Under the pieces are notes generated by a model, which was not told where the DNA came from, ran no database searches, and was given only the letters and a program-made list of their open reading frames with translations. From the NCBI RefSeq assembly GCF_058153355.1, contig NZ_CM177019.1: a DNA stretch of 64,000 nt; one strand, given 5' to 3'. Positions 10,067 through 31,063 of this stretch are shown here, one piece after another. Position 1 is the first letter of the stretch. The number at the start of each line of letters is the position of its first letter. The position numbers and the translations under genes were made by a program.

Positions 10067-10644
10067 AGCATGTACTGCATACCTCCTGCCTTAGAATTAT
10101 CTCCGGCTAACTCCACCAAACATGGCTGTACACAGCCAGATAAGAACGCTTGCGCGCATCTGGATATCATACCGCTGCTGGAACTGTTTCTTAATCATCC
10201 TACCTTATTCGACCTATTCGTTACTGGCCATTATGAAGGACGCAAAGTAAGCGCTTTTTATGCGTTTTGGCCTAGTTATTATCACGTTACCTTAATATTA
10301 TCAGGAACGAGTTAACGCTGCTCATAACGGTCAAACCGATACTATAAAGCCCAATAATTGAAACCTTTTCATCATGTCAGGAAGATAGTCATCCTTATGA
10401 TCTTTATATAAAAAAGCCAACCATGGGGTTGGCAAAGTGGCACAAACCAGCATAAAAGCTATGCTTTGTTTACAAATCTTCTTTGAATTAAATATATATC
10501 GTCCTGACTAAACAGAACTAAAACGGAATGAATTATTTAATCATATTACTAAATTTCATTTTGTTTAGACTCTGTTGAGATCCCTTGTTTTAAATTTCAT
10601 TTAGATAAAATTCTTAATTAAATCCTTGGGAGTCAATTATCTCT

Positions 10645-10899
10645 ATGCAAAGTCAAGGAATGTACTTTGAAATGAACCTATACGCATATTTGAATAAATA
10701 TGATAGTCGGCTTTCAGAAGAAAAACTTGCAATTGATAAGGCAGTTAGAGATTTATATCTTTGCAACGAACACGTGGATAACAAGAGCATTATACTGAAA
10801 TTGCTCTCATTTTTATCATCTGCTGATGACATTGTTGAAAAAGATATTATCAGGAATGCTTTGGAAGTGGTGCTTCTTTTTACATTAGACGATATTTAA
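10645..10899 (+). CDS. AriR/YmgB-family paralog (connector-like small protein)
   Basis: 84-aa ORF; C-terminal half NKSIILKLLSFLSSADDIVEKDIIRNALEVVLLFTLDDI aligns with Ari[40 protein letters not shown]. Confidence 0.7.
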   Translation: MQSQGMYFEMNLYAYLNKYDSRLSEEKLAIDKAVRDLYLCNEHVDNKSIILKLLSFLSSADDIVEKDIIRNALEVVLLFTLDDI

Positions 10900-11147
10900 G
10901 TCATCTCAGGAGTTTTAATACACGAAGAGTGCCCGGATACTAGCGATTATATTCATATTTAATTATTAGTGCGGGGAAAGAGATTATGCATTGGCATATT
11001 TCTCTAACGTCCGCGATAGAAAAACAACTTTAAATATAAATAAAGAACAAACCACCTTTGCATTCAACCTCATCTGAGCTGACTATAGTACAAATTATAT
11101 TGATATTCTTTATCAACATCATTGGAACAGAAGAATAAGGCGAAGAA

Positions 11148-11471
11148 ATGAAGTGTATAGTAATTGATACTGTAATACAACCTTCGTGTGGTATATATTT
11201 TTCAGTCATATGGAGCGATATAAAAATGATCATTTGGTATCGTTCAAATATCTTTCTCCCACCTGGCAGCATATTTACAGTTATTAAGTCAGGTATTATA
11301 CTCGAGGATAAAGAATATCCGATCAGTATTTTTAACGTGGCGCTATTCAACAAAAATTTATGGAATTTAATCAAAAATAGTCAAGAGTGTCCTACAGAAT
11401 CAAACAAAATTACGAATAAATGCCTGCATAAGCATTGCATTATGCAAATATGTCCACATGGTCTCAAGTAA
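11148..11471 (+). CDS. iraM: Anti-adaptor protein IraM
   Basis: 107-aa [21 protein letters not shown]...[18 protein letters not shown]; recognised as IraM. Confidence 0.88.
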
Positions 11472-11518
11472 TGGGGGTTATTTAACCTTCCCTATATGCT
11501 ATAGATAAATCTACCAAA

Positions 11519-11560
11519 AACTGCCCCTTCGTAGAGGGGCTCTATGATTTTGTTTTATTT
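11519..11560 (+). terminator. Rho-independent terminator after iraM
   Basis: GC hairpin CTGCCCC-TTCGTAG-AGGGGC followed by a T-rich tract. Confidence 0.6.
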
Positions 11561-12205
11561 GAAGGCATGGTGCTGAATGTACTCGTTGAATCCAGATTCA
11601 ACACCTGAAGCTACACTTAACCCATAATACTTGTTTCTGGTTCCTCTACCGAGTGGTCAAACAATGATATGTATGTGACGTCAGAGTTTATTTTTTTAGT
11701 GTTTAATGCTATTAATTTAACGTAGTTACCTATCTTTTTTCTACCTTCTGAACTAACCTTAGGTTTCAACGTATCCGGCAGGAGGGGCTATCCCCAATCT
11801 TAAATTTTGCTGCCCGATTTGCTCAAGCCAAAGTTTTAATTTTACAACCTATAAACCTGAGTTAAATCAACCTCATGGTGCTGTCTGTTCCCGCTGTGGA
11901 ACAAGACTCACTGCAACATCTTGCATTCCTAAACTTCGCAGAAGGCGATGGGCAAAAACTGTACTGTAATGTTATTTCGATGTCTCTTATGGTAAATAGG
12001 AGGCGTCGAGGCTAAGTGAGTAGCCTGCTTGCTTCTCAAGCCTGGATACTATCAGCATTCACGTCAGATGAAATGATGATATTTCGCGTAAGAAAGAGGC
12101 ATTTTTTTATCAACTTCACATCGGAGATGGTAATAATCCTATGGGTCCAGTCCATATGAGGGGGTCAACATACTATAAAATTCACAATCATAAATTAACT
12201 ATATA

Positions 12206-13663
12206 TCAAGAACGCCAAAAAAATCCTGAAAATAGTATAATAACAGGGTAAATTTCAAGTCGACCAAGAATCATAGCAATACACATGAGATATTTTGCAA
12301 TATCATTAAGAACACCGAATGAGGATGCGGTAGCCCCAAAACCCAGCCCCATATTATTAATGCATGCAGCGACTGTCGCAAATGATGTAAGGAAATCATA
12401 TCCCATACCGTTTAGCACCAGTATAAAAAACACTGTAAAGAAAGTATAAAGAAAAAAGAAACTCCATACAGACCTCATTACGCGGTCTGTAACAATCTTC
12501 CCTCCTACATTTACACTAAGCAATGCTCTGGGATGAGAAAGCTGATTTATTTCGTGTTTACTTTGTTTAAAAAGTATAAGAAATCTAAGTGATTTAATTC
12601 CGCCGCACGTTGAGCCTATACATCCCCCAAAAAAACTTGACAGCAGCAAAAAAACTATCGTATGTGTGGGCCAGTTTGAATAATCCTGCGTAGCTAAACC
12701 ATTATCAGTGAGCATGGAGCTAGCAAGAAAAAACGAATGAACAACACTTCCAGTTAAGTCATACATACCTATATGCCAGACCTGGAAAGAGGTAACAATA
12801 ATAACACCTGAAGCTATTAACAAAAAGAAACGAAGTTCAACATCTGTGAGTAAGGGTTTTATTGTTTTCCTGCTTATAACAACATACCAAAGAGTGAAGT
12901 TGAAAGCCGATAACAGAGAAAAAGAGCCCGCCACCAGTTCAATCAAATAATTATTGAAATAGCCGATACTCTCACTATGAGTTGAAAAACCGCCAAGAGA
13001 AACTGTAGAAAGTCCATGACAAATAGCATCAAACAAAGGCATTCCTGCAAGTCGATAACAAACAATACAAGCAATGCCTAATAAAGAATAAGTTATCCAA
13101 AGTGTCCGCGACGTATCAGCCAAGCGTGGAGTCAGTTTGTCATCCTTAAATGGCCCTGGCATTTCTGACTGATAAAGTTTTGCACCACCAATACCCAATA
13201 ATGGCAACACAGCAACTGCCAGAACAATAACCCCTAAACCGCCGATAAAATTTAATTGTGACCGGTAGAACAAATATGCCCGAGATAATGAACTGACATC
13301 ATCAATTACTGTTGCTCCTGTTGTTGTTATTCCGGAAACCCCTTCAAACAGCGCGTCAGCAAACGTTAAATTAAGCTCTGAATCAATCCATAATGGAAAT
13401 GCGCTAATAATAGAAAATAAAATCCAAAACATTACAATTATAATAAACCCATCACGGGTGCGTAATTGAATGCCAGATTTTTTAGTGGTATACCACGCTC
13501 CGCCACCAATACAAAAAAATATAACAAAAGTAATAAAAAAAACGAACAAGCTTTTTTCTTTATAAAACAATGCTACAACCATTGGTGGTAACATTGAAAG
13601 ACTATAGAGCCAGACCAAGAACCCACACATATGAGTTACAACTCTTACATGAGATGTATTCAT
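12206..13663 (-). CDS. trkG: TrkH/TrkG-family K+ uptake membrane protein (TrkG-like)
   Basis: Multi-pass membrane protein with TrkH-family motifs (SGITTTGATV, repeated G-rich pore loops); 485 aa from MNTSHV (ORF could start 18 nt upstream at 13681); very AT-rich. Confidence 0.7.
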   Translation of the reverse strand: MNTSHVRVVTHMCGFLVWLYSLSMLPPMVVALFYKEKSLFVFFITFVIFFCIGGGAWYTTKKSGIQLRTRDGFIIIVMFWILFSIISAFPLWIDSELNLTFADALFEGVSGITTTGATVIDDVSSLSRAYLFYRSQLNFIGGLGVIVLAVAVLPLLGIGGAKLYQSEMPGPFKDDKLTPRLADTSRTLWITYSLLGIACIVCYRLAGMPLFDAICHGLSTVSLGGFSTHSESIGYFNNYLIELVAGSFSLLSAFNFTLWYVVISRKTIKPLLTDVELRFFLLIASGVIIVTSFQVWHIGMYDLTGSVVHSFFLASSMLTDNGLATQDYSNWPTHTIVFLLLSSFFGGCIGSTCGGIKSLRFLILFKQSKHEINQLSHPRALLSVNVGGKIVTDRVMRSVWSFFFLYTFFTVFFILVLNGMGYDFLTSFATVAACINNMGLGFGATASSFGVLNDIAKYLMCIAMILGRLEIYPVIILFSGFFWRS

Positions 13664-14099
13664 ATCCAAATGTTCTTTCAATTATAACCACCTTACTGCA
13701 ATGTCATGATTATACTGTATAAATTTTAACTCTTCTTAGATCTTACTTCACTGGTCCTTATGAAACAATCAGCAAAATGAATCTTATTATAACACTGTTC
13801 GGTTATGTATTGTTGAGCCTTCCCGCTGGGCCTGCATCATTACAAGTCGCTCCCTATGGGGCTTTGTCGAATAAATAATTTTTCGGTAAGTATCCCCTGA
13901 GCAGGTTGTATCTTCAGGCAGTATGAACACTTTCTGGCATACCTACCTTCGTCATTATGTTCAGCGTATGCACCATGACCAAAGCCTCTGCAACCGGCCG
14001 ATCATAATCTAGCAACATCAGAGAACCTCAGAATAACTGTTTTACCCTGTACATTGCCGTTTCCGCTATTGAGCAACGATTGTAATCTTTTGTCCATTT

Positions 14100-14530
14100 T
14101 CACCGGGAATTACCCTCGGTCAATCGCTGATACGCGACTGCACAGTTACGGTCGGCATACTCACCGGACCAGTAACCCGCTCCTTTTTGGGGTGGGATGA
14201 GCGCGCTGATTTTCACACGGCGCAGCTGCTCGTAACAGAGCCGAGAGGCGTAAACTCCGTCTGCTGCTGTCCTGATTTTTTGATGGGTTTGCCGGATTAA
14301 TCCGGCTACACCTCTACATCCGTTACGCTGAATGCTGAGGTCGCCCTTGGGAAGAAGGCATTGCTGACTTATACCAATCCGAAATCACCTCCTCGTGCAA
14401 CCAGACAGGGAGGGGCCTCGGTTGATAAGAGCTCTGTTATTGATGTGCCAGTTGGTGATTCTAACTTTTGCTTTGTAACGGGACGAGCCGTGTTGGCAGA
14501 TGATGTGTGGTCTGATCCTTAAACTCAGTA
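14100..14530 (-). pseudogene. IS5-family (IS903-group) transposase remnant
   Basis: Minus-strand frame without start codon encodes ...VAGLIRQTHQKIRTAADGVYASRLCYEQLRRVKISALIPPQKGAGYWSGEYADRNCAV..., matching the C-terminal region of the IS903 transposase as I recall it; truncated by stops; no intact ORF. Confidence 0.6.
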
Positions 14531-14544
14531 AAAGTACGATTTAT

Positions 14545-14585
14545 TCAAAAAAGCCCCTCCACTATGATTTCGATTTAAGGGGCTG
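14545..14585 (-). terminator. Rho-independent terminator downstream of the 458-aa gene
   Basis: On the minus strand, AGCCCCTT...AAGGGGCT hairpin followed by TTTTTGAATAAA. Confidence 0.5.
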
Positions 14586-14615
14586 ATGATTATGTAACGC
14601 GAATTTACCGGATCC

Positions 14616-16001
<1,386 letters not shown>

Positions 16002-16320
16002 TCAGGGGGGTTGATATTCCGGATCATGCCGTGTTTGCCCACGGCTCCCCCTGGAGAGCTGCAGACCTGTTTATTTAACTCGCACAGCGCCGGGGCCTGT
16101 CAGCAAACAGGGAGCATAACCGTCGTGCCATTAAACGCCAGACGGGAGATCATTATTATTTTATTAATACAGATTCGTTGCATTCCGGTCTTTACCGCAG
16201 TTTAAAAGAAAAGAGAATAGGGACTTAGGCAGTAGAGCAGTCATTGGACAGACCACACTACCCCAAACTAGCAGGGGAGTTTTGATAAAATTTTGATAAC
16301 CGTTAGCATGCTAACAAAAA

Positions 16321-16383
16321 ACAACGGGCGTGTTATACGCCCGTTTCAATATTTAACACATGTAGTGATTACATATTCTTGAT
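16321..16383. repeat. icd 3'-end/terminator repeat (copy B, native icd end)
   Basis: Partner of repeat A at 10005..10066; includes the icd terminator hairpin 16323..16345 and the icd stop codon and last codons. Confidence 0.6.
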
Positions 16384-17619
16384 GATCGCGTCACCAAACT
16401 CTGAACATTTCAGCAGTTTAGCGCCTTCCATCAGACGTTCGAAGTCATAGGTTACAGTCTTCGCGTTGATTGCGCCTTCCATACCTTTAACAATCAGGTC
16501 TGCGGCTTCAGTCCAGCCCATATGGCGCAGCATCATCTCAGCGGAGAGGATGATAGAGCCTGGGTTAACTTTGTCCTGACCAGCATACTTCGGCGCAGTA
16601 CCGTGGGTGGCTTCAAACAGCGCGCATTCGTCACCGATGTTTGCGCCTGGGGCGATACCGATACCGCCAACCTGCGCTGCCAGAGCATCAGAAATGTAGT
16701 CACCGTTGAGGTTCATACAGGCGATAACGTCGTATTCAGCCGGACGCAGCAGGATCTGTTGCAGGAATGCGTCAGCAATCACGTCTTTAATGACGATCTC
16801 TTTGCCGGTGTTCGGGTTTTTGACTTTCAGCCACGGCCCGCCGTCGATCAGTTCACCGCCAAACTCTTCACGCGCCAGCTGGTAACCCCAGTCTTTAAAC
16901 GCGCCTTCGGTGAACTTCATGATGTTGCCTTTGTGCACCAGGGTCACAGAGTCACGGTCGTTAGCAATTGCGTATTCGATCGCGGCACGAACCAGACGTT
17001 TGGTGCCTTCTTCCGAACACGGCTTGATACCGATACCGCAATGTTCCGGGAAGCGAATTTTCTTCACGCCCATCTCTTCACGCAGGAATTTAATCACTTT
17101 CTCAGCGTCGGCAGAGTCAGCTTTCCATTCGATACCCGCATAAATATCTTCCGAGTTTTCACGGAAGATAACCATATCGGTCAGTTCAGGATGTTTAACC
17201 GGGCTTGGGGTGCCCTGATAGTAACGTACCGGACGCAGGCAGATGTAGAGATCCAGTTCCTGGCGCAGAGCTACGTTGAGAGAACGAATACCGCCGCCAA
17301 CCGGAGTGGTCAGAGGGCCTTTAATGGCAACGCGATACTCACGAATCAGATCAAGGGTTTCAGCAGGCAGCCAGACATCCTGACCATAAACCTGTGTGGA
17401 TTTTTCACCGGTGTAAATTTCCATCCAGGAGATTTTACGCTCGCCTTTATAGGCTTTCTCGACCGCAGCGTCGACCACTTTCAGCATGGCTGGGGTTACA
17501 TCTACACCGATTCCATCACCTTCAATGTAAGGGATAATCGGATTTTCAGGAACGTTGAGTTTGCCGTTTTGCAGGGTGATCTTCTTGCCTTGTGCCGGAA
17601 CAACTACTTTACTTTCCAT
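16369..17619 (-). CDS. icd: Isocitrate dehydrogenase (NADP)
   Basis: 416-aa [41 protein letters not shown]...; unmistakable Icd. Confidence 0.97.
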
Positions 17620-17790
17620 TCACCTCTCCTTCGAGCGCTACTGGTTTGCTCGTCTGCCACCACGTTGCATATGCGTTTGCGTCCTGCGATACGGATGCTT
17701 TAGAGCAATTTTTTGTTAATGATTTGTAATTGGCTTGTCAATACTACCCTATTGTTTGCCGTCATGAAAGATGCGCGTTATTAGGCTATA

Positions 17791-18444
17791 ATGCGGCAAT
17801 TCATAATCTCTGAAAATACCATGCAAAAAACTTCTTTTAGAAATCACCAGGTTAAGCGATTCAGCTCGCAACGTTCTACCAGGCGAAAACCTGAAAACCA
17901 GCCCACGCGTGTGATCCTGTTCAATAAACCCTACGATGTTCTTCCGCAGTTCACCGATGAAGCCGGACGCAAAACATTAAAAGAATTCATCCCGGTTCAG
18001 GGGGTGTATGCGGCAGGTCGTCTCGACCGCGACAGCGAAGGGTTACTGGTGCTGACCAATAACGGCGCTTTGCAGGCGCGTTTAACCCAGCCGGGTAAAC
18101 GTACCGGGAAAATCTATTATGTACAGGTAGAAGGTATTCCCACGGAAGACGCCCTTGAAGCGTTGCGCAATGGCGTAACCTTAAATGATGGCCCTACCCT
18201 GCCCGCAGGTGCGGAGATGGTTGAGGAGCCGGAATGGTTATGGCCCCGTAATCCGCCAATTCGTGAACGAAAAAGTATTCCCACCAGCTGGCTTAAGATC
18301 ACCTTATATGAAGGACGTAATCGCCAGGTGCGCCGCATGACCGCCCATGTTGGTTTTCCCACGCTGCGACTGATTCGCTATGCGATGGGTGATTACTCTT
18401 TGGATAATCTTGCCAATGGCGAATGGCGAGAAGCGACAGATTAA
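17791..18444 (+). CDS. rluE: 23S rRNA pseudouridine synthase RluE
   Basis: 217-aa ORF with RluA-family catalytic motif ([15 protein letters not shown]). Confidence 0.92.
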
Positions 18445-18453
18445 GGACGCAAA

Positions 18454-20075
<1,622 letters not shown>

Positions 20076-20110
20076 TTATTTTCTTTACTTAAAACAAGGA
20101 AGCAGTGAAC

Positions 20111-20752
20111 GTGGCAAAGAATTACTATGACATCACCCTCGCCCTGGCCGGTATTTGTCAGTCGGCACGCCTGGTGCAACAACTCGCTCACCAGGGGCAT
20201 TGTGATGCCGATGCGCTACACGTCTCACTCAACAGTATTATTGATATGAACCCCAGCTCGACGCTGGCGGTTTTTGGCGGCAGCGAAGCCAACCTGCGCG
20301 TCGGGCTGGAAACATTGCTCGGCGTGCTCAATGCCAGCAGTCGCCAGGGCTTAAACGCTGAGTTAACCCGCTACACACTCAGCCTGATGGTGCTTGAGCG
20401 CAAACTCTCCTCAGCGAAAGGCGCGCTCGACACTCTGGGCAACCGGATCAACGGCCTGCAACGCCAGCTCGAACACTTCGATTTACAGTCCGAAACGCTG
20501 ATGAGCGCGATGGCTGCTATCTATGTTGATGTGATTAGCCCGCTTGGCCCACGCATTCAGGTCACCGGTTCCCCTGCTGTACTGCAAAGTCCACAGGTAC
20601 AGGCGAAAGTCCGCGCTACCCTGCTGGCAGGCATTCGCGCCGCCGTGCTCTGGCACCAGGTCGGCGGCGGACGTCTGCAACTGATGTTTTCTCGTAATCG
20701 CCTGACCACTCAGGCAAAACAAATTCTTGCTCATTTAACCCCGGAGTTGTGA
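20111..20752 (+). CDS. hflD: Lysogenization regulator HflD
   Basis: 213 aa from GTG ([24 protein letters not shown]...). Confidence 0.88.
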
Positions 20753-22126
<1,374 letters not shown>

Positions 22127-22217
22127 GCCTCAAATCAGTGCCGGATGGCGATGCTGTCCGGCCTGCTTATTAAGATTATCCGCTTTTTATTTTTTCTCTT
22201 TACCTCCCCTCCCCGCT

Positions 22218-22234
22218 GGTTTATTTAATGTTTA
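22218..22234 (+). promoter_or_regulatory. PhoP box in the phoPQ promoter
   Basis: Direct repeat GGTTTA-TTTAA-TGTTTA about 60 bp upstream of the phoP start, matching the (T/G)GTTTA-N5-(T/G)GTTTA consensus. Confidence 0.7.
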
Positions 22235-22294
22235 CCCCCATAACGACATAATCGCGTTACACTATTTTAATAATTAAAACAGGGAGAATGAAAA

Positions 22295-22966
22295 ATGCGC
22301 GTACTGGTTGTTGAAGACAATGCGTTGTTACGTCACCATCTTAAAGTTCAGATTCAGGATGCTGGTCATCAGGTCGATGACGCAGAAGATGCCAAAGAAG
22401 CCGATTATTATCTCAATGAGCATTTACCGGATATTGCGATTGTCGATCTCGGTTTGCCTGACGAGGACGGTCTGTCATTGATTCGCCGCTGGCGTAGCAA
22501 TGATGTTTCACTGCCGATTCTGGTATTAACCGCCCGTGAAAGCTGGCAGGACAAAGTCGAAGTATTAAGTGCCGGTGCTGATGATTACGTGACTAAACCG
22601 TTTCATATTGAAGAGGTGATGGCGCGAATGCAGGCATTAATGCGGCGTAATAGCGGTCTGGCTTCCCAGGTCATTTCGCTACCACCGTTTCAGGTTGATC
22701 TCTCCCGCCGTGAATTATCTATTAATGACGAAGTGATCAAACTGACCGCGTTCGAATACACCATTATGGAAACGTTGATACGCAATAATGGCAAAGTGGT
22801 CAGCAAAGATTCGTTAATGCTACAACTCTACCCGGATGCGGAGCTGCGGGAAAGCCATACCATTGATGTACTGATGGGACGTCTGCGCAAAAAAATTCAG
22901 GCACAATATCCGCAAGAAGTGATTACCACCGTTCGCGGCCAGGGCTATCTGTTCGAATTGCGCTGA
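22295..22966 (+). CDS. phoP: Response regulator PhoP
   Basis: 223-aa OmpR-family regulator ([25 protein letters not shown]...). Confidence 0.96.
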
Positions 22967-24426
22967 TGAAAAAATTACTGCGTCTTTTTTTCCCGCTCTC
23001 GCTGCGGGTACGTTTTCTATTGGCAACGGCAGCGGTTGTACTGGTGCTTTCGCTTGCCTACGGAATGGTTGCGCTGATCGGTTATAGCGTCAGTTTCGAT
23101 AAAACCACGTTTCGGCTGTTACGTGGCGAGAGCAATCTGTTCTATACCCTTGCGAAGTGGGAAAACAATAAGTTGCATGTCGAGTTACCCGAAAATATCG
23201 ACAAGCAAAGCCCCACCATGACGCTAATTTATGATGAGAACGGGCAGCTTTTATGGGCGCAACGTGACGTGCCCTGGCTGATGAAGATGATCCAGCCTGA
23301 CTGGCTGAAATCGAATGGTTTTCATGAAATTGAAGCGGATGTTAACGATACCAGCCTCTTGCTGAGTGGAGATCATTCGATACAGCAACAGTTGCAGGAA
23401 GTGCGGGAAGATGATGACGACGCGGAGATGACCCACTCGGTGGCGGTAAACGTCTACCCGGCAACATCGCGGATGCCAAAGTTAACCATTGTGGTGGTGG
23501 ATACCATTCCGGTGGAGCTAAAAAGTTCCTATATGGTCTGGAGCTGGTTTATCTATGTGCTCTCAGCCAATCTGCTGTTAGTGATCCCGCTGCTGTGGGT
23601 CGCCGCCTGGTGGAGTTTACGCCCCATCGAAGCCCTGGCAAAAGAAGTCCGCGAACTGGAAGAACATAACCGCGAATTGCTCAATCCAGCCACAACGCGA
23701 GAACTGACCAGTCTGGTACGAAACCTGAACCGACTGTTAAAAAGTGAACGCGAACGTTACGACAAATATCGTACGACGCTCACCGACCTGACCCATAGTC
23801 TGAAAACGCCACTGGCGGTGCTGCAAAGTACGCTGCGTTCTCTGCGTAGTGAGAAGATGAGCGTCAGTGATGCTGAGCCGGTGATGCTGGAGCAAATCAG
23901 CCGCATTTCACAGCAAATTGGCTACTACCTGCATCGTGCCAGTATGCGCGGTGGGACATTGCTTAGCCGCGAGCTGCATCCGGTCGCCCCTCTGTTGGAC
24001 AATCTCACCTCGGCGCTGAACAAAGTGTATCAACGCAAAGGGGTCAATATCTCTCTCGATATTTCACCAGAGATCAGCTTTGTTGGTGAGCAGAACGATT
24101 TTGTCGAGGTGATGGGCAACGTGCTGGATAACGCCTGTAAATATTGCCTCGAGTTTGTCGAAATATCTGCAAGGCAAACCGACGAGCATCTCTATATTGT
24201 GGTCGAGGATGATGGCCCCGGTATTCCATTAAGCAAGCGAGAGGTCATTTTCGACCGTGGTCAACGGGTTGATACTTTACGCCCTGGGCAAGGTGTAGGG
24301 CTGGCGGTAGCCCGCGAAATCACCGAGCAGTATGAGGGTAAAATCGTCGCCGGAGAGAGCATGCTGGGCGGTGCGCGGATGGAGGTGATTTTTGGTCGCC
24401 AGCATTCTGCGCCGAAAGATGAATAA
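22966..24426 (+). CDS. phoQ: Sensor histidine kinase PhoQ
   Basis: 486-aa ORF with two TM segments, H-box ([12 protein letters not shown]) and ATPase domain; start overlaps phoP stop. Confidence 0.96.
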
Positions 24427-24501
24427 ATATGTCCATACTTCACGCATTACGTTAAGCATCCGTTATAATCGGTTGCAGATACCAGCCTGTGGATGCTTAA
24501 C

Positions 24502-25623
24502 ATGGAATACCAACTCACTCTTAACTGGCCCGATTTTCTTGAACGTCACTGGCAGAAACGCCCGGTGGTGTTAAAACGCGGCTTTAATAATTTTATTGAC
24601 CCGATCTCTCCAGACGAGTTGGCGGGTCTGGCGATGGAAAGCGAAGTCGACAGTCGACTGGTCAGTCACCAGGATGGCAAATGGCAGGTCAGCCACGGCC
24701 CGTTCGAAAGCTACGATCATCTCGGTGAAACCAACTGGTCGTTACTGGTACAGGCAGTGAACCACTGGCATGAGCCGACCGCCGCGCTGATGCGGCCGTT
24801 CCGTGAACTACCGGACTGGCGTATTGATGACCTGATGATCTCTTTTTCCGTACCTGGCGGCGGCGTCGGCCCACATCTCGATCAGTACGACGTGTTTATC
24901 ATTCAGGGTACCGGACGTCGTCGCTGGCGAGTGGGCGAAAAGCTACAAATGAAACAGCACTGCCCGCACCCGGATCTGTTACAGGTCGATCCGTTCGAAG
25001 CCATCATCGATGAAGAGCTGGAGCTTGGCGATATCCTTTATATTCCGCCAGGATTCCCGCATGAAGGCTACGCGCTGGAAAATGCGATGAACTATTCCGT
25101 GGGTTTTCGCGCGCCAAATACGCGGGAACTGATTAGCGGATTTGCCGATTATGTGCTGCAACGTGAACTGGGCGGCAACTACTACAGCGATCCTGATGTT
25201 CCACCTCGCGCTCATCCTGCGGACGTTCTGCCGCAAGAGATGGATAAACTGCGTGAGATGATGCTCGAATTGATCAACCAGCCGGAACACTTTAAGCAAT
25301 GGTTTGGCGAGTTTATATCCCAGTCACGTCATGAACTGGATATCGCGCCGCCGGAGCCGCCTTATCAGCCGGATGAAATCTACGATGCGCTGAAACAAGG
25401 TGATGTGCTGGTGCGCCTGGGTGGTCTGCGCGTATTGCGCATTGGCGACGACGTGTATGCCAATGGTGAGAAGATCGATTCCCCGCACCGTCCGGCACTG
25501 GATGCGCTCGCCAGCAACATTGCGCTGACCGCGGAGAATTTTGGCGATGCGCTGGAAGATCCGTCATTCCTCGCGATGCTCGCGGCGCTGGTCAATAGCG
25601 GATACTGGTTCTTCGAAGGGTAA
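24502..25623 (+). CDS. roxA: Ribosomal protein uL16 arginine hydroxylase RoxA (YcfD)
   Basis: 373 aa from MEYQLTLNWPDFLERHWQKRP; JmjC/cupin-type fold. Confidence 0.9.
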   Translation: MEYQLTLNWPDFLERHWQKRPVVLKRGFNNFIDPISPDELAGLAMESEVDSRLVSHQDGKWQVSHGPFESYDHLGETNWSLLVQAVNHWHEPTAALMRPFRELPDWRIDDLMISFSVPGGGVGPHLDQYDVFIIQGTGRRRWRVGEKLQMKQHCPHPDLLQVDPFEAIIDEELELGDILYIPPGFPHEGYALENAMNYSVGFRAPNTRELISGFADYVLQRELGGNYYSDPDVPPRAHPADVLPQEMDKLREMMLELINQPEHFKQWFGEFISQSRHELDIAPPEPPYQPDEIYDALKQGDVLVRLGGLRVLRIGDDVYANGEKIDSPHRPALDALASNIALTAENFGDALEDPSFLAMLAALVNSGYWFFEG

Positions 25624-25671
25624 GTTTGGATTTAAGCCGGATGCGACATCACATGCCGCATCCCTTTTCGC

Positions 25672-26898
25672 TTACTTCCGTTGCGCCGTTAACTCGGCAA
25701 TACGGACGATCACCTGCACCGCTTTTTCCATACCTTCCAGAGTCACAAATTCATGCTTACCATGGTAGTTGTAACCGCCAGTGAACAGGTTCGGACACGG
25801 TAATCCCATAAACGACAACTGCGCGCCGTCGGTACCACCGCGGATCGGTTTCAGTTCCGGCTCAATATCGCAGTCACGCATCGCCTGCTGAGCGATATCG
25901 AGAATATGCGGATGCTCAACCACTTTCTCGCGCATATTGTAGTAACTGTCTTCAATCACCAGTTCAATGTAGCAATCAGGATGTAACCCTTTGCCCACTT
26001 TTTTGGCGATCTCCATCATTTTACGTTTACGCGCTTCAAACTGTTTACGGTCGAAATCACGAATGATGTAGTGCATATCGGCCCGTTCAACGGTGCCTTT
26101 CATGCTCGCCAGGTGATAGAAACCTTCATAGCCTTCTGTCATTTCCGGGCTTTCATTTGCCGGAACTTCCGCATGAATACGTGCCGCCAGCGAAAGCGCA
26201 TTTACCATCACTCCTTTCGCCGTGCCCGGGTGAACATTGTTACCGACAATTTTGATATTGACCGACGCGGCGTTGAAGTTTTCAAACTCCAGTTCGCCTA
26301 CGCCACCACCATCAACGGTGTAAGCCCAGCGGGCATCGAAGGCGTCAACATCAAAATGTTTCGCCCCTTTACCCACTTCTTCATCCGGGGTAAAGGCGAC
26401 ACGAATATCACCATGCGGAATGTTTTTTTGTTGTAATACCGCCAGCGCGGTCATGATTTCTGCAATACCAGCTTTATCATCGGCACCTAACAAGGTTTTA
26501 CCATCGGTGGTAATCAGCGTCTGACCCAGTAGCTGATGCAGCACCGGGAACATAACCGGTGATAAAACTTCATCGCCGATACCCAGCGCAATATCGCCAC
26601 CACGATAGTTTTCAACAATTTGCGGATTCACATTTTTGCCGCTGCAATCCGGTGAGGTATCCACATGAGAAATAAAGCCAATCGCCGGGATATCGCCAGG
26701 GACGTTAGCCGGTAACGTCGCCATCAAAGTGCCCTTCTCACTTAAGGTCACATTGATAAGCCCCATCTCTTCGAGCTGCTCTTTCAGCAGATGCAATAAC
26801 TTCCATTGGCCTTCCGTGCTGGGAACCTGTCTCACCCCTGCCTTTGATTGGGTATCCAGAGACACGTAGTTCAAAAATCGCTCAAGTAGTTTATCCAT
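25672..26898 (-). CDS. pepT: Peptidase T
   Basis: 408 aa from [19 protein letters not shown]20 metallopeptidase. Confidence 0.95.
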
Positions 26899-27147
26899 GT
26901 AGTCACCCTCACTTTTTGTGACAACATTATTAAGAAGCAAGAAAAGACAAATATTGCGTCAGGTCACTTTTACCCCTGCAAGCGGGAATATTTATCAGCA
27001 TTACCTTAATGAATATAAAGCTAAGCCAGTAATTCACAACAAAGATTGGCGATTCAAGCGGTTTGCCGTAGAATTACCGCCCTCATTAAGAGTCACCAAG
27101 GTGGTTAACCACAAACCCCGCATCGGTAAGCCATCCGTTGCGTTTAC

Positions 27148-28284
27148 ATGGGACAGAGTAAAAAATTGAATAAACAACCGAGTTCGCTTTCACCGCTGGT
27201 GCAATTGGCGGGAATTCGCAAATGCTTTGATGGTAAAGAGGTCATTCCCCAGCTGGATCTGACTATCAATAATGGCGAGTTCCTCACGCTGCTTGGCCCT
27301 TCTGGCTGCGGTAAAACAACCGTTCTTCGCCTGATCGCAGGTCTGGAAACTGTTGATTCCGGACGCATCATGCTGGATAACGAGGACATCACCCACGTTC
27401 CGGCTGAAAACCGCTATGTGAACACTGTTTTCCAAAGCTACGCACTTTTCCCCCACATGACCGTGTTCGAAAATGTGGCCTTTGGGTTGCGCATGCAAAA
27501 AACCCCCGCAGCTGAAATTACGCCCCGCGTGATGGAAGCCCTGCGGATGGTGCAGCTGGAAACCTTCGCTCAACGCAAACCGCATCAGCTCTCTGGCGGT
27601 CAACAGCAACGCGTTGCCATTGCCCGCGCGGTGGTTAACAAGCCTCGTCTGTTGTTGCTGGATGAGTCGCTCTCAGCGCTGGATTACAAACTGCGCAAGC
27701 AAATGCAGAACGAGCTGAAAGCGTTACAGCGTAAGCTTGGCATTACATTCGTGTTCGTAACTCACGACCAGGAAGAAGCACTTACCATGTCGGACAGGAT
27801 TGTGGTGATGCGCGATGGTCGCATTGAGCAAGACGGCACGCCGCGTGAAATCTACGAAGAGCCGAAAAACCTGTTTGTTGCTGGGTTTATCGGTGAAATC
27901 AATATGTTTAATGCCACGGTCATCGAACGTCTCGACGAGCAGCGCGTACGCGCCAACGTTGAAGGCCGCGAATGTAATATCTACGTTAACTTCGCCGTTG
28001 AGCCAGGGCAAAAACTGCATGTTCTGCTACGTCCTGAAGACTTACGCGTTGAAGAGATTAACGACGATAACCACGCTGAAGGCCTGATTGGTTATGTTCG
28101 CGAGCGTAACTACAAAGGCATGACGCTGGAGTCGGTTGTTGAACTGGAAAATGGCAAGATGGTGATGGTCAGCGAATTCTTCAATGAAGACGATCCTGAC
28201 TTTGACCACTCTCTCGACCAAAAAATGGCCATTAATTGGGTAGAAAGCTGGGAGGTCGTACTGGCTGATGAAGAACACAAGTAA
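27148..28284 (+). CDS. potA: Spermidine/putrescine ABC transporter ATPase PotA
   Basis: 378-aa ORF with Walker A (GPSGCGKTT) and ABC signature (LSGGQQQR). Confidence 0.96.
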
Positions 28285-29125
28285 GTTCCAGAATGTAGTG
28301 ATTGTCACTATTGTCGGTTGGCTTGTGTTGTTTGTCTTTCTGCCCAACCTGATGATCATCGGCACCAGCTTTTTGACCCGCGACGACGCCAGTTTCGTCA
28401 AAATGGTCTTTACGCTGGATAACTACACGCGACTGCTCGATCCGCTTTATTTTGAAGTGCTATTGCACTCGTTGAATATGGCGCTGATCGCCACCCTCGC
28501 CTGCCTGGTGCTGGGCTACCCGTTTGCCTGGTTTCTGGCAAAGCTGCCACACAAGGTGCGTCCGCTGCTGCTGTTTCTGCTGATTGTTCCGTTCTGGACC
28601 AACTCATTGATTCGTATCTATGGGCTGAAAATTTTCCTCAGTACCAAAGGCTATCTCAACGAGTTTTTGCTCTGGCTGGGCGTTATCGATACACCAATTC
28701 GCATCATGTTCACGCCTAGTGCGGTGATTATCGGTCTGGTTTACATTCTGCTGCCGTTTATGGTGATGCCGCTGTACTCCAGTATCGAAAAACTGGATAA
28801 GCCGTTGCTTGAGGCGGCGCGCGATCTCGGTGCCAACAAGTTGCAGACCTTTATCCGTATCATTATCCCACTGACGATGCCGGGGATTATTGCCGGATGT
28901 CTGCTGGTGATGCTGCCAGCGATGGGCCTGTTCTACGTGTCTGACCTGATGGGCGGTGCGAAAAACCTGCTGATTGGTAACGTCATCAAGGTCCAGTTCC
29001 TCAATATTCGTGACTGGCCGTTTGGTGCTGCCACCAGCATTACGCTGACTATCGTAATGGGCCTGATGTTGCTGGTTTACTGGCGCGCTTCTCGTTTGCT
29101 GAATAAGAAGGTGGAACTCGAATGA
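28268..29125 (+). CDS. potB: Spermidine/putrescine ABC transporter permease PotB
   Basis: Polytopic permease ORF following potA; true start may be the GTG at 28298. Confidence 0.9.
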
Positions 29126-29916
29126 TCGGTCGACTGCTTCGCGGCGGTTTTATGACCGCTATCTACGCGTACCTGTATATCCCAATCATTATTTTGATTG
29201 TGAACTCCTTTAACAGCTCGCGCTTTGGCATCAACTGGCAGGGTTTTACCACCAAATGGTATAGCCTGCTGATGAACAACGACAGCCTGTTACAGGCAGC
29301 TCAGCATTCTCTGACGATGGCGGTGTTTTCGGCGACGTTTGCTACGCTTATCGGTTCACTGACGGCAGTTGCGCTGTACCGTTATCGCTTTCGTGGTAAG
29401 CCGTTCGTTAGCGGAATGCTGTTTGTGGTGATGATGTCACCAGATATCGTAATGGCGATTTCGCTGCTGGTGCTGTTTATGCTGCTGGGTATTCAGCTTG
29501 GCTTCTGGTCGCTGCTGTTCTCGCATATCACCTTCTGCCTGCCGTTTGTGGTGGTGACGGTGTATTCGCGCCTGAAAGGTTTTGATGTGCGAATGCTGGA
29601 AGCGGCGAAAGATCTCGGTGCCAGCGAATTTACCATTCTGCGAAAAATCATTCTGCCACTGGCAATGCCTGCGGTGGCGGCGGGCTGGGTGTTAAGCTTT
29701 ACCCTGTCGATGGACGATGTAGTAGTTTCTTCGTTCGTCACCGGACCAAGCTATGAAATTCTGCCGTTAAAAATTTATTCGATGGTCAAAGTCGGCGTAT
29801 CGCCGGAAGTTAACGCGCTGGCAACCATATTACTGGTGCTGTCGCTGGTGATGGTAATTGCCAGCCAGCTTATTGCTCGTGATAAAACGAAAGGTAACAC
29901 AGGGGACGTTAAATGA
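29122..29916 (+). CDS. potC: Spermidine/putrescine ABC transporter permease PotC
   Basis: 264-aa permease; start overlaps potB stop. Confidence 0.94.
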   Translation: MIGRLLRGGFMTAIYAYLYIPIIILIVNSFNSSRFGINWQGFTTKWYSLLMNNDSLLQAAQHSLTMAVFSATFATLIGSLTAVALYRYRFRGKPFVSGMLFVVMMSPDIVMAISLLVLFMLLGIQLGFWSLLFSHITFCLPFVVVTVYSRLKGFDVRMLEAAKDLGASEFTILRKIILPLAMPAVAAGWVLSFTLSMDDVVVSSFVTGPSYEILPLKIYSMVKVGVSPEVNALATILLVLSLVMVIASQLIARDKTKGNTGDVK

Positions 29917-30959
29917 AAAAATGGTCACGCCACCTGCTCGCGGCGGGTGCTCTGGCACTGGGCATGAGCGCCGCTCACGCCGATGACAACAACACGCTGT
30001 ATTTCTACAACTGGACCGAGTACGTGCCGCCAGGACTGCTTGAACAGTTCACCAAAGAAACCGGTATTAAGGTTATCTATTCGACTTACGAGTCGAACGA
30101 AACCATGTACGCGAAGCTGAAAACGTACAAAGACGGTGCCTATGACCTGGTGGTTCCTTCAACCTATTACGTCGATAAAATGCGTAAAGAAGGGATGATC
30201 CAGAAGATCGATAAGTCGAAGTTAAGCAACTTCAGCAATCTCGATCCAGACATGCTCAACAAGCCGTTTGACCCGAATAACGACTACTCCATTCCGTATA
30301 TCTGGGGGGCGACGGCGATTGGCGTTAACGGTGATGCGGTTGACCCGAAATCTGTCACCAGCTGGGGCGATCTGTGGAAGCCTGAGTACAAAGGCAGCCT
30401 GCTGCTGACCGACGATGCCCGTGAAGTGTTCCAGATGGCGCTGCGCAAACTGGGCTACTCCGGTAACACCACCGATCCGAAAGAGATTGAAGCTGCATAC
30501 AACGAGCTGAAAAAACTGATGCCAAACGTCGCGGCGTTTAACTCCGATAACCCGGCGAACCCGTATATGGAAGGCGAAGTTAACCTCGGCATGATCTGGA
30601 ACGGTTCTGCTTTCGTTGCACGCCAGGCGGGTACGCCAATTGATGTGGTGTGGCCGAAAGAAGGCGGCATTTTCTGGATGGACAGCCTGGCGATCCCGGC
30701 AAATGCTAAAAACAAAGAGGGCGCGCTGAAATTGATCAACTTCCTGCTGCGCCCGGATGTGGCAAAACAGGTTGCTGAAACTATCGGTTATCCAACGCCA
30801 AACCTCGCCGCGCGTAAGCTGTTAAGCCCGGAAATAGCGAACGACAAGACGCTCTACCCGGATGCTGAAACCATTAAAAATGGCGAATGGCAGAATGACG
30901 TTGGCGCAGCCAGCAGCATTTATGAAGAGTATTATCAGAAGCTGAAAGCAGGACGTTAA
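29913..30959 (+). CDS. potD: Spermidine/putrescine-binding periplasmic protein PotD
   Basis: 348-aa ORF with signal peptide; start overlaps potC stop. Confidence 0.96.
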   Translation: MKKWSRHLLAAGALALGMSAAHADDNNTLYFYNWTEYVPPGLLEQFTKETGIKVIYSTYESNETMYAKLKTYKDGAYDLVVPSTYYVDKMRKEGMIQKIDKSKLSNFSNLDPDMLNKPFDPNNDYSIPYIWGATAIGVNGDAVDPKSVTSWGDLWKPEYKGSLLLTDDAREVFQMALRKLGYSGNTTDPKEIEAAYNELKKLMPNVAAFNSDNPANPYMEGEVNLGMIWNGSAFVARQAGTPIDVVWPKEGGIFWMDSLAIPANAKNKEGALKLINFLLRPDVAKQVAETIGYPTPNLAARKLLSPEIANDKTLYPDAETIKNGEWQNDVGAASSIYEEYYQKLKAGR

Positions 30960-30966
30960 TTCAGCA

Positions 30967-30996
30967 AGCGGGCGGTGGTATTACCGCCCGTTTTTT
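30967..30996 (+). terminator. Rho-independent terminator of the pot operon
   Basis: GCGGGCGGTGGTATTACCGCCCG hairpin followed by TTTTTTC. Confidence 0.8.
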
Positions 30997-31063
30997 CATT
31001 TAGCAAGGATGTGGCTAATGTTGCTGTTATGGACGAGTAAACACTAAAAGAGGCAGTAAATAT

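What the first reader, a model, noticed from the sequence alone, without database searches (positions are those of the whole stretch)
12067..12106. Second copy of the 40-bp MPLSYA-encoding element, between iraM and the trkG-like gene
This is the partner of the 1987..2026 copy. Here the minus-strand mini-ORF is only 12 codons (MPLSYAKYHHFI*) and lies about 100 bp downstream of the trkG-like 3' end, with no obvious downstream gene. That is consistent with a remnant of a rearranged or duplicated 5' region inside the island.
Basis: seen in the sequence. Interest (0 to 1): 0.3.

Follow-up and report, generated by a model that had tools for sequence, protein, structure and literature searches.

The report
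Orphan scrap of an autotransporter leader
The 40-bp repeat is real, but it is most likely a dead, roughly 50-bp leftover of the untranslated leader that precedes YpjA/EhaD-type adhesin genes in E. coli, stranded in a decayed prophage island next to icd; it is ordinary genome debris rather than a new gene or element.

Summary
Window 12067-12106 matches 1987-2026 at 38/40, with none expected by chance. The minus-strand mini-ORF is MPLSYAKYHHFI*, 103 nt past the trkG stop. Homology extends only to about 47-56 bp (12052/12061-12106). It includes a 1-nt deletion that creates the early stop. No further flank similarity exists.

The element is not a two-copy oddity. Most E. coli carry it upstream of ypjA as well as at the ymgJ/ycgI locus, with at most three places per genome. 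Both full copies sit in a roughly 245-bp leader tract that is about 97% identical between two paralogous autotransporter cassettes, which are otherwise about 80% identical.

The "MPLSYA" ORF shows no sign of coding constraint:
- It has no Shine-Dalgarno sequence.
- All 9 observed changes are nonsynonymous, nonsense or start-loss.
- Its stop position varies and frameshifted variants exist.
- PGAP's "ATPase" label for it has no family support.

I found no Rfam match and no RNA-structure signal.

Copy 2 lies in a mosaic spacer made of a Rac-type trkG cassette end, a lambdoid ren-nin scrap and unmatched DNA. This spacer sits inside an icd-adjacent island found in 18 of 5426 complete genomes.

Best reading: a non-functional orphan fragment of a ycgI-type leader. 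Interest is low.

The parts
12067..12106 (-). Orphan copy (copy 2) of the 40-bp core; sense strand is the minus strand
   Evidence: 38/40 to 1987-2026. Identical in all 10 island-bearing loci examined.
12052..12106 (-). Full extent of detectable homology of copy 2 (47 bp strict, 55-56 bp permissive), with a 1-nt deletion after ...TTTCATC
   Evidence: Local alignments and MAFFT alignment
12064..12102 (-). Mini-ORF MPLSYAKYHHFI* (12 codons plus stop), truncated by the 1-nt deletion; no Shine-Dalgarno upstream
   Evidence: direct reading
1987..2026 (-). Copy 1 of the 40-bp core, inside the leader of the intact AIDA/YpjA-EhaD-type autotransporter gene
   Evidence: PGAP labels 1912-2028 a partial 'ATPase' pseudogene.
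1781..2026 (-). Leader tract (5' untranslated region, start codon, first ~20 codons) that is 92-100% identical per 40-nt bin to the K-12 ypjA leader; flanks are 64-83% identical. Conservation tapers upstream to about 2060.
   Evidence: block 1890-2026 is 97.1%; 2027-2219 is 78.6%; ORF part is 81.5%
1..1844 (-). 5' part of the autotransporter gene (AIDA repeat-containing protein; K-12 ycgI is its deleted remnant); paralogue of ypjA
   Evidence: Annotation of L001. Window 1-2219 is 82.9% identical to K-12 ypjA plus its upstream region.
12156..13854 (-). Rac-type trkG cassette (trkG 12206-13663 plus 50-bp tail and a 3' piece of rzpR). Its homology to all Rac-like prophage copies ends uniformly at 12156, 49 bp from copy 2.
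11913..12017 (-). 105-bp scrap about 79% identical to the ren-nin intergenic region of lambdoid (including Stx) prophages
11509..12155 (.). Mosaic spacer between the iraM terminator and the trkG cassette. Apart from copy 2 and the ren-nin scrap it matches nothing outside the island-bearing genomes.
11148..11471 (+). iraM, a divergent allele (about 80% DNA identity to K-12), followed by a bidirectional terminator-like hairpin at 11523-11547
10001..10066 (.). Repeat of the icd stop/terminator region (partner 16317-16383); marks the far edge of the icd-adjacent island that contains copy 2
   Evidence: D6, D7
16317..16383 (.). icd 3' end/terminator region, partner of the 10001-10066 repeat
   Evidence: D6, D7

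Best explanation
Copy 2 is a non-functional orphan fragment. It corresponds to the first 47-56 bp of a conserved stretch of the non-coding 5' leader that precedes YpjA/EhaD-type (AIDA-family) autotransporter genes in E. coli. It is stranded in a patchwork of prophage debris between iraM and a Rac-type trkG cassette, inside an island next to icd, the e14 attachment gene. Shown: it is homologous to the leaders at the ymgJ/ycgI locus and at ypjA; it is truncated on both sides; it carries a frameshifting 1-nt deletion; and its neighbours are other short unrelated scraps. Inferred: it descends from a longer copy of a ycgI-type leader, probably part of an autotransporter cassette or a picked-up piece of the nearby ymgJ/ycgI locus. 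That copy was carried in a prophage once integrated at icd and was then whittled down by deletions. It does nothing today beyond being passively transcribed, if at all, as part of the trkG 3' region.
For: The repeat is real and not due to chance. A 65-nt query around copy 2 finds 7857 places in 5287 of 5426 complete E. coli genomes, at most 3 per genome. The examined examples are the ymgJ/ycgI leader and the ypjA leader. Window 1-2219 is 82.9% identical to K-12 ypjA plus 385 bp upstream. Within that, the leader block is 97.1% identical against 78.6% upstream and 81.5% in the ORF, so the 40-mer is the start of a conserved leader block. Copy 2 keeps only 47-56 bp and has a 1-nt deletion that creates the stop. 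At the one diagnostic site it has the ycgI-type base (CTCTTTC, 5/5 ycgI-type copies) rather than the ypjA-type (CTCATTC, 13/13). The context is prophage debris. The trkG cassette ends at 12156 in all 39 Rac-like loci that cover that end. A 105-bp lambdoid ren-nin scrap lies 35-50 bp away. IraM belongs to a PHROG family. An IS5 fragment is present, and icd-terminator repeats bound the island. Evidence against a coding role: no SD by direct reading; 9 of 9 differences among cassette copies are nonsynonymous, nonsense or start-loss; frameshifted variants P0005-P0007 exist; there is no family hit. Evidence against an RNA role: no credible Rfam hit, folding z-scores from +0.9 to +1.3, and 0 covarying pairs.
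Against: No other remnant of an autotransporter, invertase or ymgJ-like sequence is detectable in the island, so the 'once longer copy' is not directly shown. No intermediate or fuller version of the island was found: all 18 complete genomes and 9 further contexts show the same structure. The 40-bp core is better preserved (5% divergence) than the adjoining 15 nt (33%), which could hint at constraint on the core. The spacer is about 99.6% identical among carriers, so selection on copy 2 cannot be assessed.
Confidence: 0.62

Rival explanations
1. The patch was never part of a longer copy. About 50 nt were copied directly from the neighbouring ycgI-type leader, 10 kb away, into a break or junction by template switching, illegitimate recombination or short-patch conversion. 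This happened during the rearrangements that joined the trkG cassette to the iraM side. It is still non-functional.
For: Copy 2 carries the ycgI-type diagnostic base and its closest match is the same window's copy 1 (38/40). Both of its edges are novel junctions with unrelated DNA. The spacer is a patchwork of very short pieces of 50-105 bp. No other cassette remnant exists.
Against: Two substitutions plus an indel in about 47 bp, and a fuzzy 10/15 extension, suggest age and decay rather than a clean recent patch. No donor-acceptor microhomology is evident at the edges beyond an A-run. The mechanism is not testable with one fixed structure.
Confidence: 0.22
2. The 40-mer is a self-contained functional cis-element of the autotransporter leader, such as a binding site for a protein or sRNA or a translation-control sequence. 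The orphan copy is retained because it places the trkG 3' region under the same factor or acts as a decoy.
For: The leader block is about 97% identical between paralogues that are otherwise about 80% identical, which suggests constraint or conversion. The core of copy 2 is better preserved than its extension. No terminator is predicted between trkG and copy 2 on the minus strand, so it is probably co-transcribed with trkG.
Against: Only the first third of the conserved block is present. The 10-bp palindrome CATCATGATG of the full copies is destroyed by the deletion. There is no Rfam hit, structure signal or covariation. The orphan occurs in only 18 of 5426 complete genomes. High paralogue identity can equally come from gene conversion.
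Confidence: 0.07
3. It is a genuine small-protein gene: the MPLSYA... peptide, a leader peptide of the autotransporter, with copy 2 as a second, shorter allele.
For: An ATG-initiated ORF is present in all three locus types. PGAP annotates the 39-aa version as a CDS ('ATPase' or hypothetical, e.g. WP_001120794.1).
Against: There is no SD in either window copy. All 9 observed differences are nonsynonymous, nonsense or start-loss and none is synonymous. ORF length varies: 39 aa in K-12, 102 aa here, 12 aa in copy 2. Frameshifted natural variants exist. One strain has ATG changed to ATA. No homologues occur outside this Escherichia locus among 5.8 billion proteins. There is no NCBIfam, Pfam or PHROG family.
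Confidence: 0.03
4. The two direct repeats are attachment or recombination sites that bound a mobile 10-kb segment (2027-12066: ymgI...bluF...iraM).
For: They are 40-bp direct repeats in the same orientation, 10,080 bp apart.
Against: The enclosed ymg-blu-iraM genes are present in the same order in K-12, which lacks copy 2. No recombinase gene is adjacent. The island's real boundary repeats are the icd-terminator copies at 10001-10066 and 16317-16383. The longest perfect runs are only 17 and 18 bp. A third copy sits at ypjA with no such partner.
Confidence: 0.02

Closest known systems
5' leader of ypjA (K-12 b2647; PGAP 'adhesin-like autotransporter YpjA/EhaD') and of its paralogue at the ymgJ/ycgI locus
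   Same: Copy 2 matches the start of the conserved block of this leader at 37-38/40. It has the same orientation relative to the (lost) downstream side and the same A-run/ATG start.
   Different: Only 47-56 of about 245 conserved bp are present, with a 1-nt deletion. No autotransporter gene follows. The flanks are unrelated.
ymgJ (K-12 b4594) and the PGAP 39-aa ORF labelled 'ATPase' or hypothetical (e.g. WP_001120794.1)
   Same: The 40-mer overlaps the last 44 nt of annotated ymgJ and the first 36 nt of the 39-aa ORF in K-12.
   Different: Neither ORF is conserved. The ymgJ frame stops after 11 codons in this window. The 39-aa ORF varies in length, start and frame among strains. Copy 2 retains 12 codons only.
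Short gene or leader fragments left in cryptic-prophage regions of E. coli K-12 (icdC at e14, pinH next to ypjA, psaA at CP4-57)
   Same: It is a small recognisable piece of a sequence whose full copy lies elsewhere. It sits at or near a prophage integration site among other scraps.
   Different: icdC and psaA arise directly from site-specific integration (att duplication). Copy 2 is not at the island edge and has no such mechanism. Both of its ends are illegitimate junctions.
Prophage-borne AIDA-family adhesin genes (e.g. eaa in atypical EPEC, PMC12399667)
   Same: This is a precedent for AIDA-family autotransporter genes travelling as prophage cargo. ypjA itself abuts CP4-57 and a truncated Pin-type invertase gene.
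   Different: Here no adhesin gene remains in the island. Cargo status of a former third cassette is inferred, not shown.

Membership tests
Leader of YpjA/EhaD-type autotransporter cassettes (homologous fragment) | Significant nucleotide homology to the conserved leader block | tested here: met
   38/40 to the window's own leader and 37/40 to K-12 ypjA and ycgI leaders; 0 expected by chance
Leader of YpjA/EhaD-type autotransporter cassettes (intact, functional member) | Full ~245-bp conserved tract followed by an autotransporter ORF with its extended signal peptide | tested here: not met
   Homology stops after 47-56 bp. tblastn with YpjA and the AIDA protein finds nothing in 9901-16400.
Small protein-coding gene (39-aa MPLSYA ORF / PGAP 'ATPase') | Intact ORF of conserved length with a ribosome-binding site | tested here: not met
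   12 codons in copy 2; 39, 67 (longer upstream start) or 102 aa elsewhere; no SD upstream of the ATG
Small protein-coding gene (39-aa MPLSYA ORF / PGAP 'ATPase') | Purifying selection (excess of synonymous changes) and homologues beyond the locus | tested here: not met
   0 synonymous out of 9 differences; frameshift and start-loss variants; only Escherichia same-locus hits; no NCBIfam family
Dispersed bacterial repeats (REP/BIME, ERIC/IRU, MITEs) | Many copies per genome at unrelated intergenic sites; palindromic structure or terminal inverted repeats | tested here: not met
   At most 3 places per genome for the 65-nt query and at most 4 for the whole leader. All examined examples are autotransporter leaders plus this orphan. 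No inverted-repeat structure.
Structured regulatory RNA or sRNA | Match to a curated family, or stable or covarying secondary structure | tested here: not met
   Only hits far below gathering scores overlapping the element, E about 4-7. z-scores +0.9 to +1.3. 0 compensatory pairs, although the sequences are too similar for covariation to be informative.
Site-specific recombination (att) repeat | Direct repeats at the two ends of a variably present segment, with a recombinase gene nearby | tested here: not met
   The enclosed segment is present in K-12 without copy 2. No recombinase is adjacent. The island is bounded instead by icd-terminator repeats.
Intrinsic terminator of trkG | GC-rich hairpin followed by a U-run on the trkG strand | tested here: not met
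   No minus-strand terminator-like site between 12205 and 11541. The nearest is at 11540-11523.

The most novel reading that the evidence does not exclude
The first ~40-55 nt of the YpjA/EhaD-type leader form an autonomous regulatory module, such as a binding site for an unknown protein or sRNA that controls these usually silent adhesin genes. The orphan copy behind trkG would be kept in this lineage as a decoy, or as a way of coupling trkG mRNA to the same control. The near-identity (~97%) of the leader between paralogues that are otherwise ~80% identical would then reflect selection rather than gene conversion.
Probability: 0.04. Interest if true: 0.45.

Novelty: new member of a known kind. 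Interest (0 to 1): 0.1.

Why it matters
The finding has little biological weight. It shows that this short repeat is debris, not a gene or a mobile element. It corrects two annotation habits: PGAP's 'ATPase' name for a 39-aa ORF, and treating ymgJ as a conserved gene. It also documents that the icd-iraM junction in a minority E. coli lineage is a graveyard of prophage scraps. The more useful by-product is the roughly 245-bp leader that is nearly identical between the ypjA and ymgJ/ycgI autotransporter cassettes. That leader is a reasonable candidate for a regulatory region of these poorly expressed adhesins.

Tried and rejected
- **Phage gene start.** tblastn of the ORF and blastn of the spacer against 50,697 phage records gave nothing.
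- **Real protein family.** The 5.8-billion-protein search returned only 7 same-locus Escherichia ORFs. NCBIfam, Pfam and PHROGs gave nothing for the ORFs.
- **Other species.** The exact-pattern scan of GTDB species representatives gave only two contigs. By their blast matches to the window these look like E. coli contamination or mis-binning.
- **My own error.** I first took the 10 IMG/VR hits for ymgJ-locus alleles with an inserted island. Searches showed they are the paralogous ypjA locus, and I reinterpreted the conservation profile as a between-paralogue comparison.
- **Rac origin.** All trkG-bearing Rac-like loci that include the region downstream of trkG share only the 50-bp tail, and none has the element.
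- **Fuller or empty versions of the island.** None were found.
- **Remnants in the island.** Searches for autotransporter, PinE, McrA, YnaK and YdaY remnants were not significant. The best was McrA, 15/40 identities, E = 0.07, which I rejected as inconclusive.
- **RNA structure, Rfam, promoter and terminator.** All negative for the element.
- **Fur-box or invertase crossover-site resemblance.** Checked by eye against consensus sequences recalled from memory; no convincing match; not formally tested.
- **Literature.** Nothing on MPLSYA, on ymgJ function, or on a ypjA leader.

Full report
**Observation**

The finding is accurate as a description. Window 12067-12106 (GATGAAATGATGATATTTCGCGTAAGAAAGAGGCATTTTT) differs at two positions from 1987-2026. 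A search allowing three mismatches finds only these two sites in the 64-kb window, with none expected in shuffled sequence. On the minus strand the ATG at 12102-12100 opens MPLSYAKYHHFI*. The partner opens MPLSYAEYHHFIMMSLMSGEHN.... trkG (PF02386) ends at 12206, 103 nt upstream on that strand.

Local alignment extends the match a little on the 3' (sense) side. The strict alignment is 1980-2026 vs 12061-12106 with one gap. The permissive alignment is 1971-2026 vs 12052-12106, score 39 against a shuffle maximum of 25. The gap is a 1-nt deletion that converts ATC ATG ATG into ATC TGA, which is why the ORF is only 12 codons long. Upstream of the A-run there is no similarity.

**Where the window comes from**

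The window is E. coli chromosome. The gene order is:
- an intact AIDA/YpjA-EhaD-type autotransporter gene, whose 5' end is at 1844 on the minus strand;
- ymgI-like, ymgG, ymgD, ymgF, pdeG, ymgC, ariR, ymgA, ycgZ, bluF, bluR, ycgX;
- an extra YmgB-family gene and iraM;
- trkG (minus strand), an IS5 fragment and a 458-aa hypothetical protein;
- icd, rluE and onward to phoPQ.

The iraM-trkG arrangement occurs in only 18 of 5426 complete E. coli genomes. It is nevertheless a stable allele, seen in 878 blocks of a larger assembly collection, always in the same context. The spacer is about 99.6% identical among carriers.

**What the element belongs to**

In K-12 the 40-mer lies at the 3' end of annotated ymgJ, upstream of the ycgI autotransporter pseudogene. 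A 65-nt query around copy 2 finds 7857 places in 5287 genomes, at most three per genome, and the 18 island genomes have three. The third locus type is the region upstream of ypjA. It lies next to the pinH invertase fragment, ypjB/C, ileY and ygaQ, at the edge of CP4-57.

Window 1-2219 is 82.9% identical to K-12 ypjA plus 385 bp upstream. The ymgJ/ycgI-locus gene and ypjA are therefore paralogous cassettes. Identity along the cassettes is very uneven:

| Segment | Identity |
|---|---|
| Upstream, ymgJ-like part (2027-2219) | 78.6% |
| Leader block (1890-2026) | 97.1% |
| Rest of leader (1845-1889) | 95.6% |
| First ~60 nt of the ORF | 95-97.5% |
| ORF part in the window (1-1844) | 81.5% |

These figures are; the same pattern shows in the multiple alignment. 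The 40-mer is thus the start of the block at 1890-2026, inside a conserved leader tract of about 245 bp that is shared by two autotransporter cassettes. Conservation tapers upstream to about 2060. Copy 2 is a third, fragmentary occurrence. A search with the whole leader finds at most four places per genome and no further divergent family members.

**Is it coding?**

I conclude that it is not. The evidence is as follows.
- Neither window copy has a Shine-Dalgarno sequence upstream of the ATG.
- ORF length varies: 39 aa in K-12, 102 aa here and 12 aa in copy 2.
- Among the full copies there are nine differences. Seven are amino-acid replacements (L/H, E/G, M/V, G/S, L/P, K/Q, V/A), one is Arg/stop and one is ATG to ATA. 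None is synonymous.
- Natural frameshift variants exist (P0005-P0007).
- A search of 5.8 billion proteins returns only these same-locus Escherichia ORFs.
- NCBIfam finds nothing for the ORF.
- PGAP's product name 'ATPase' is attached to the 39-aa ORF itself and has no family support.
- The K-12 ymgJ frame is also not conserved. In this window it stops after 11 codons.

**Is it an RNA or DNA signal?**

There is no credible Rfam hit. Folding energies are no better than shuffles, with z-scores from +0.9 to +1.3. There are no covarying pairs, although the sequences are too similar for that test to be informative. No promoter-like or terminator-like site coincides with the element. No minus-strand terminator is predicted between trkG and the hairpin at 11540-11523, so copy 2 is probably co-transcribed with trkG; this is an inference. 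The full copies contain a 10-bp palindrome, CATCATGATG, which the deletion destroys in copy 2.

**Context of copy 2**

The spacer from 11509 to 12155 is a patchwork.
- The trkG cassette, including a 3' piece of rzpR, is 89% identical to Rac. Its homology ends at 12156 in K-12 and in all 39 Rac-like loci recovered from viral contigs that cover that end.
- 11913-12017 is about 79% identical to the ren-nin intergenic region of lambdoid and Stx prophages.
- The rest matches nothing in phages, in plasmids (tested for 12040-12130 only) or in other E. coli.

The whole island (about 10067-16316) is bounded by repeats of the icd stop/terminator region (D6 and D7). It lies at the gene where e14 integrates in K-12. 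IraM itself belongs to a PHROG family. No remnant of an autotransporter, Pin invertase, McrA, YnaK or YdaY is detectable. The best candidate, McrA at E = 0.07, is inconclusive.

**Explanation**

The best-supported reading is that copy 2 is a non-functional orphan fragment of a ycgI-type leader. At the single diagnostic position it has CTCTTTC like all five ycgI-type copies, not CTCATTC like all 13 ypjA-type copies. It is truncated on both sides, frameshifted, and lies among other 50-105-bp scraps.

How it arrived is inferred. I favour erosion of a longer copy that lay in a prophage once integrated at icd. That copy could have been an autotransporter cassette carried as cargo, or a piece of the nearby ymgJ/ycgI locus that a prophage picked up. 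Two observations make this plausible. ypjA itself abuts a prophage and a truncated invertase gene. AIDA-family adhesins are known prophage cargo (PMC12399667).

A direct short-patch copy from the leader 10 kb away is a serious rival, because nothing else of a cassette survives. Functional readings cannot be excluded but have no positive support. These include a regulatory module kept as a decoy or coupled to trkG, a small protein, and an att site. The att and small-protein readings fail direct tests.

**Comparison with known things, and novelty**

The fragment is homologous to the ypjA and ycgI leaders but fails the tests for an intact member: there is no full tract and no downstream gene. It is not a member of any dispersed repeat family, RNA family or protein family. 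As a kind of object it is familiar: a short leftover in a cryptic-prophage region, comparable in spirit to icdC, pinH or psaA in K-12. I rate it a new member of a known kind, with low interest. The by-product worth noting is the conserved leader shared by the two autotransporter cassettes. I could not decide whether selection or gene conversion explains that conservation.

Noticed in passing
window 1781-2026 (tapering to ~2060), minus strand; K-12 L078 8665-8916 region: A leader tract of about 245 bp (5' untranslated region plus the first ~20 codons) is 92-100% identical between the ymgJ/ycgI-locus autotransporter cassette and the ypjA cassette. The rest of the cassettes is 64-83% identical. 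This could be regulatory constraint or gene conversion; it is unresolved.
   Followed up: partly
window 10001-10066 and 16317-16383: Direct repeats (93% and 79% identical parts) of the icd stop/terminator region bracket a ~6.25-kb island. The island holds a YmgB-family gene, a divergent iraM, the mosaic spacer, trkG, an IS5 fragment and a 458-aa ORF. K-12 has a comparable icd-like remnant near ymgL. This suggests iraM itself sits in an old integrated element at icd.
   Followed up: partly
window 11913-12017: A 105-bp scrap about 79% identical to the region just downstream of ren (ren-nin intergenic) in lambdoid and Stx prophages of O157:H7 and others.
   Followed up: yes
window 3295-10039 vs 16280-31020: The ymgF-to-ycgX (pdeG/blu) block is only 91.8% identical to K-12. 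The core on the other side of icd (icd to potD) is 97.2% identical. The 18-genome lineage therefore carries a divergent haplotype for the whole autotransporter-to-icd stretch, possibly imported. One near-identical ORF is recorded from 'Escherichia sp. HH091_1A'.
   Followed up: partly
window 2131-2166, minus strand: The equivalent of K-12 ymgJ (GTG start) runs into TGA after 11 codons here, and the ypjA-type copies have TAA at the same place. ymgJ is not a conserved ORF.
   Followed up: yes
window 1912-2028 (L001 4913-5029); L018 1417-1536: PGAP names the 39-aa MPLSYA ORF 'ATPase' (as a CDS or a partial pseudogene). No family or homology supports that name.
   Followed up: yes
window 14616-15992, minus strand: A 458-aa ORF lies next to icd, where e14 has its integrase. 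It has no Pfam or NCBIfam hit and only weak PHROG hits of unknown function.
   Followed up: partly
window 11511-11636, minus strand: A weak sub-threshold Rfam match to the gammaproteobacterial sRNA STnc100 (22.9 bits against a gathering score of 47, E = 0.011). It overlaps the bidirectional iraM terminator hairpin at 11523-11547.
   Followed up: no
window 3164-3294: The K-12 ycgH autotransporter pseudogene (between ymgF and ymgD) is absent here and replaced by about 130 bp. Conversely, the gene that K-12 has only as the ycgI remnant is intact here.
   Followed up: partly
L078 9135-9305 (K-12 pinH) and 9111: The Pin-invertase homology of pinH (PinE residues 38-94) ends 24 bp before the point where ypjA-locus and ymgJ-locus homology begins. 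The shared autotransporter cassette therefore starts right at a truncated invertase gene. One E. coli protein record fuses the two as 'invertase fragment' (P0003).
   Followed up: partly
window 10645-10899: An extra YmgB/AriR-family gene (PF10798, E = 5e-14) sits just upstream of iraM inside the island. K-12 has no counterpart at this position.
   Followed up: no
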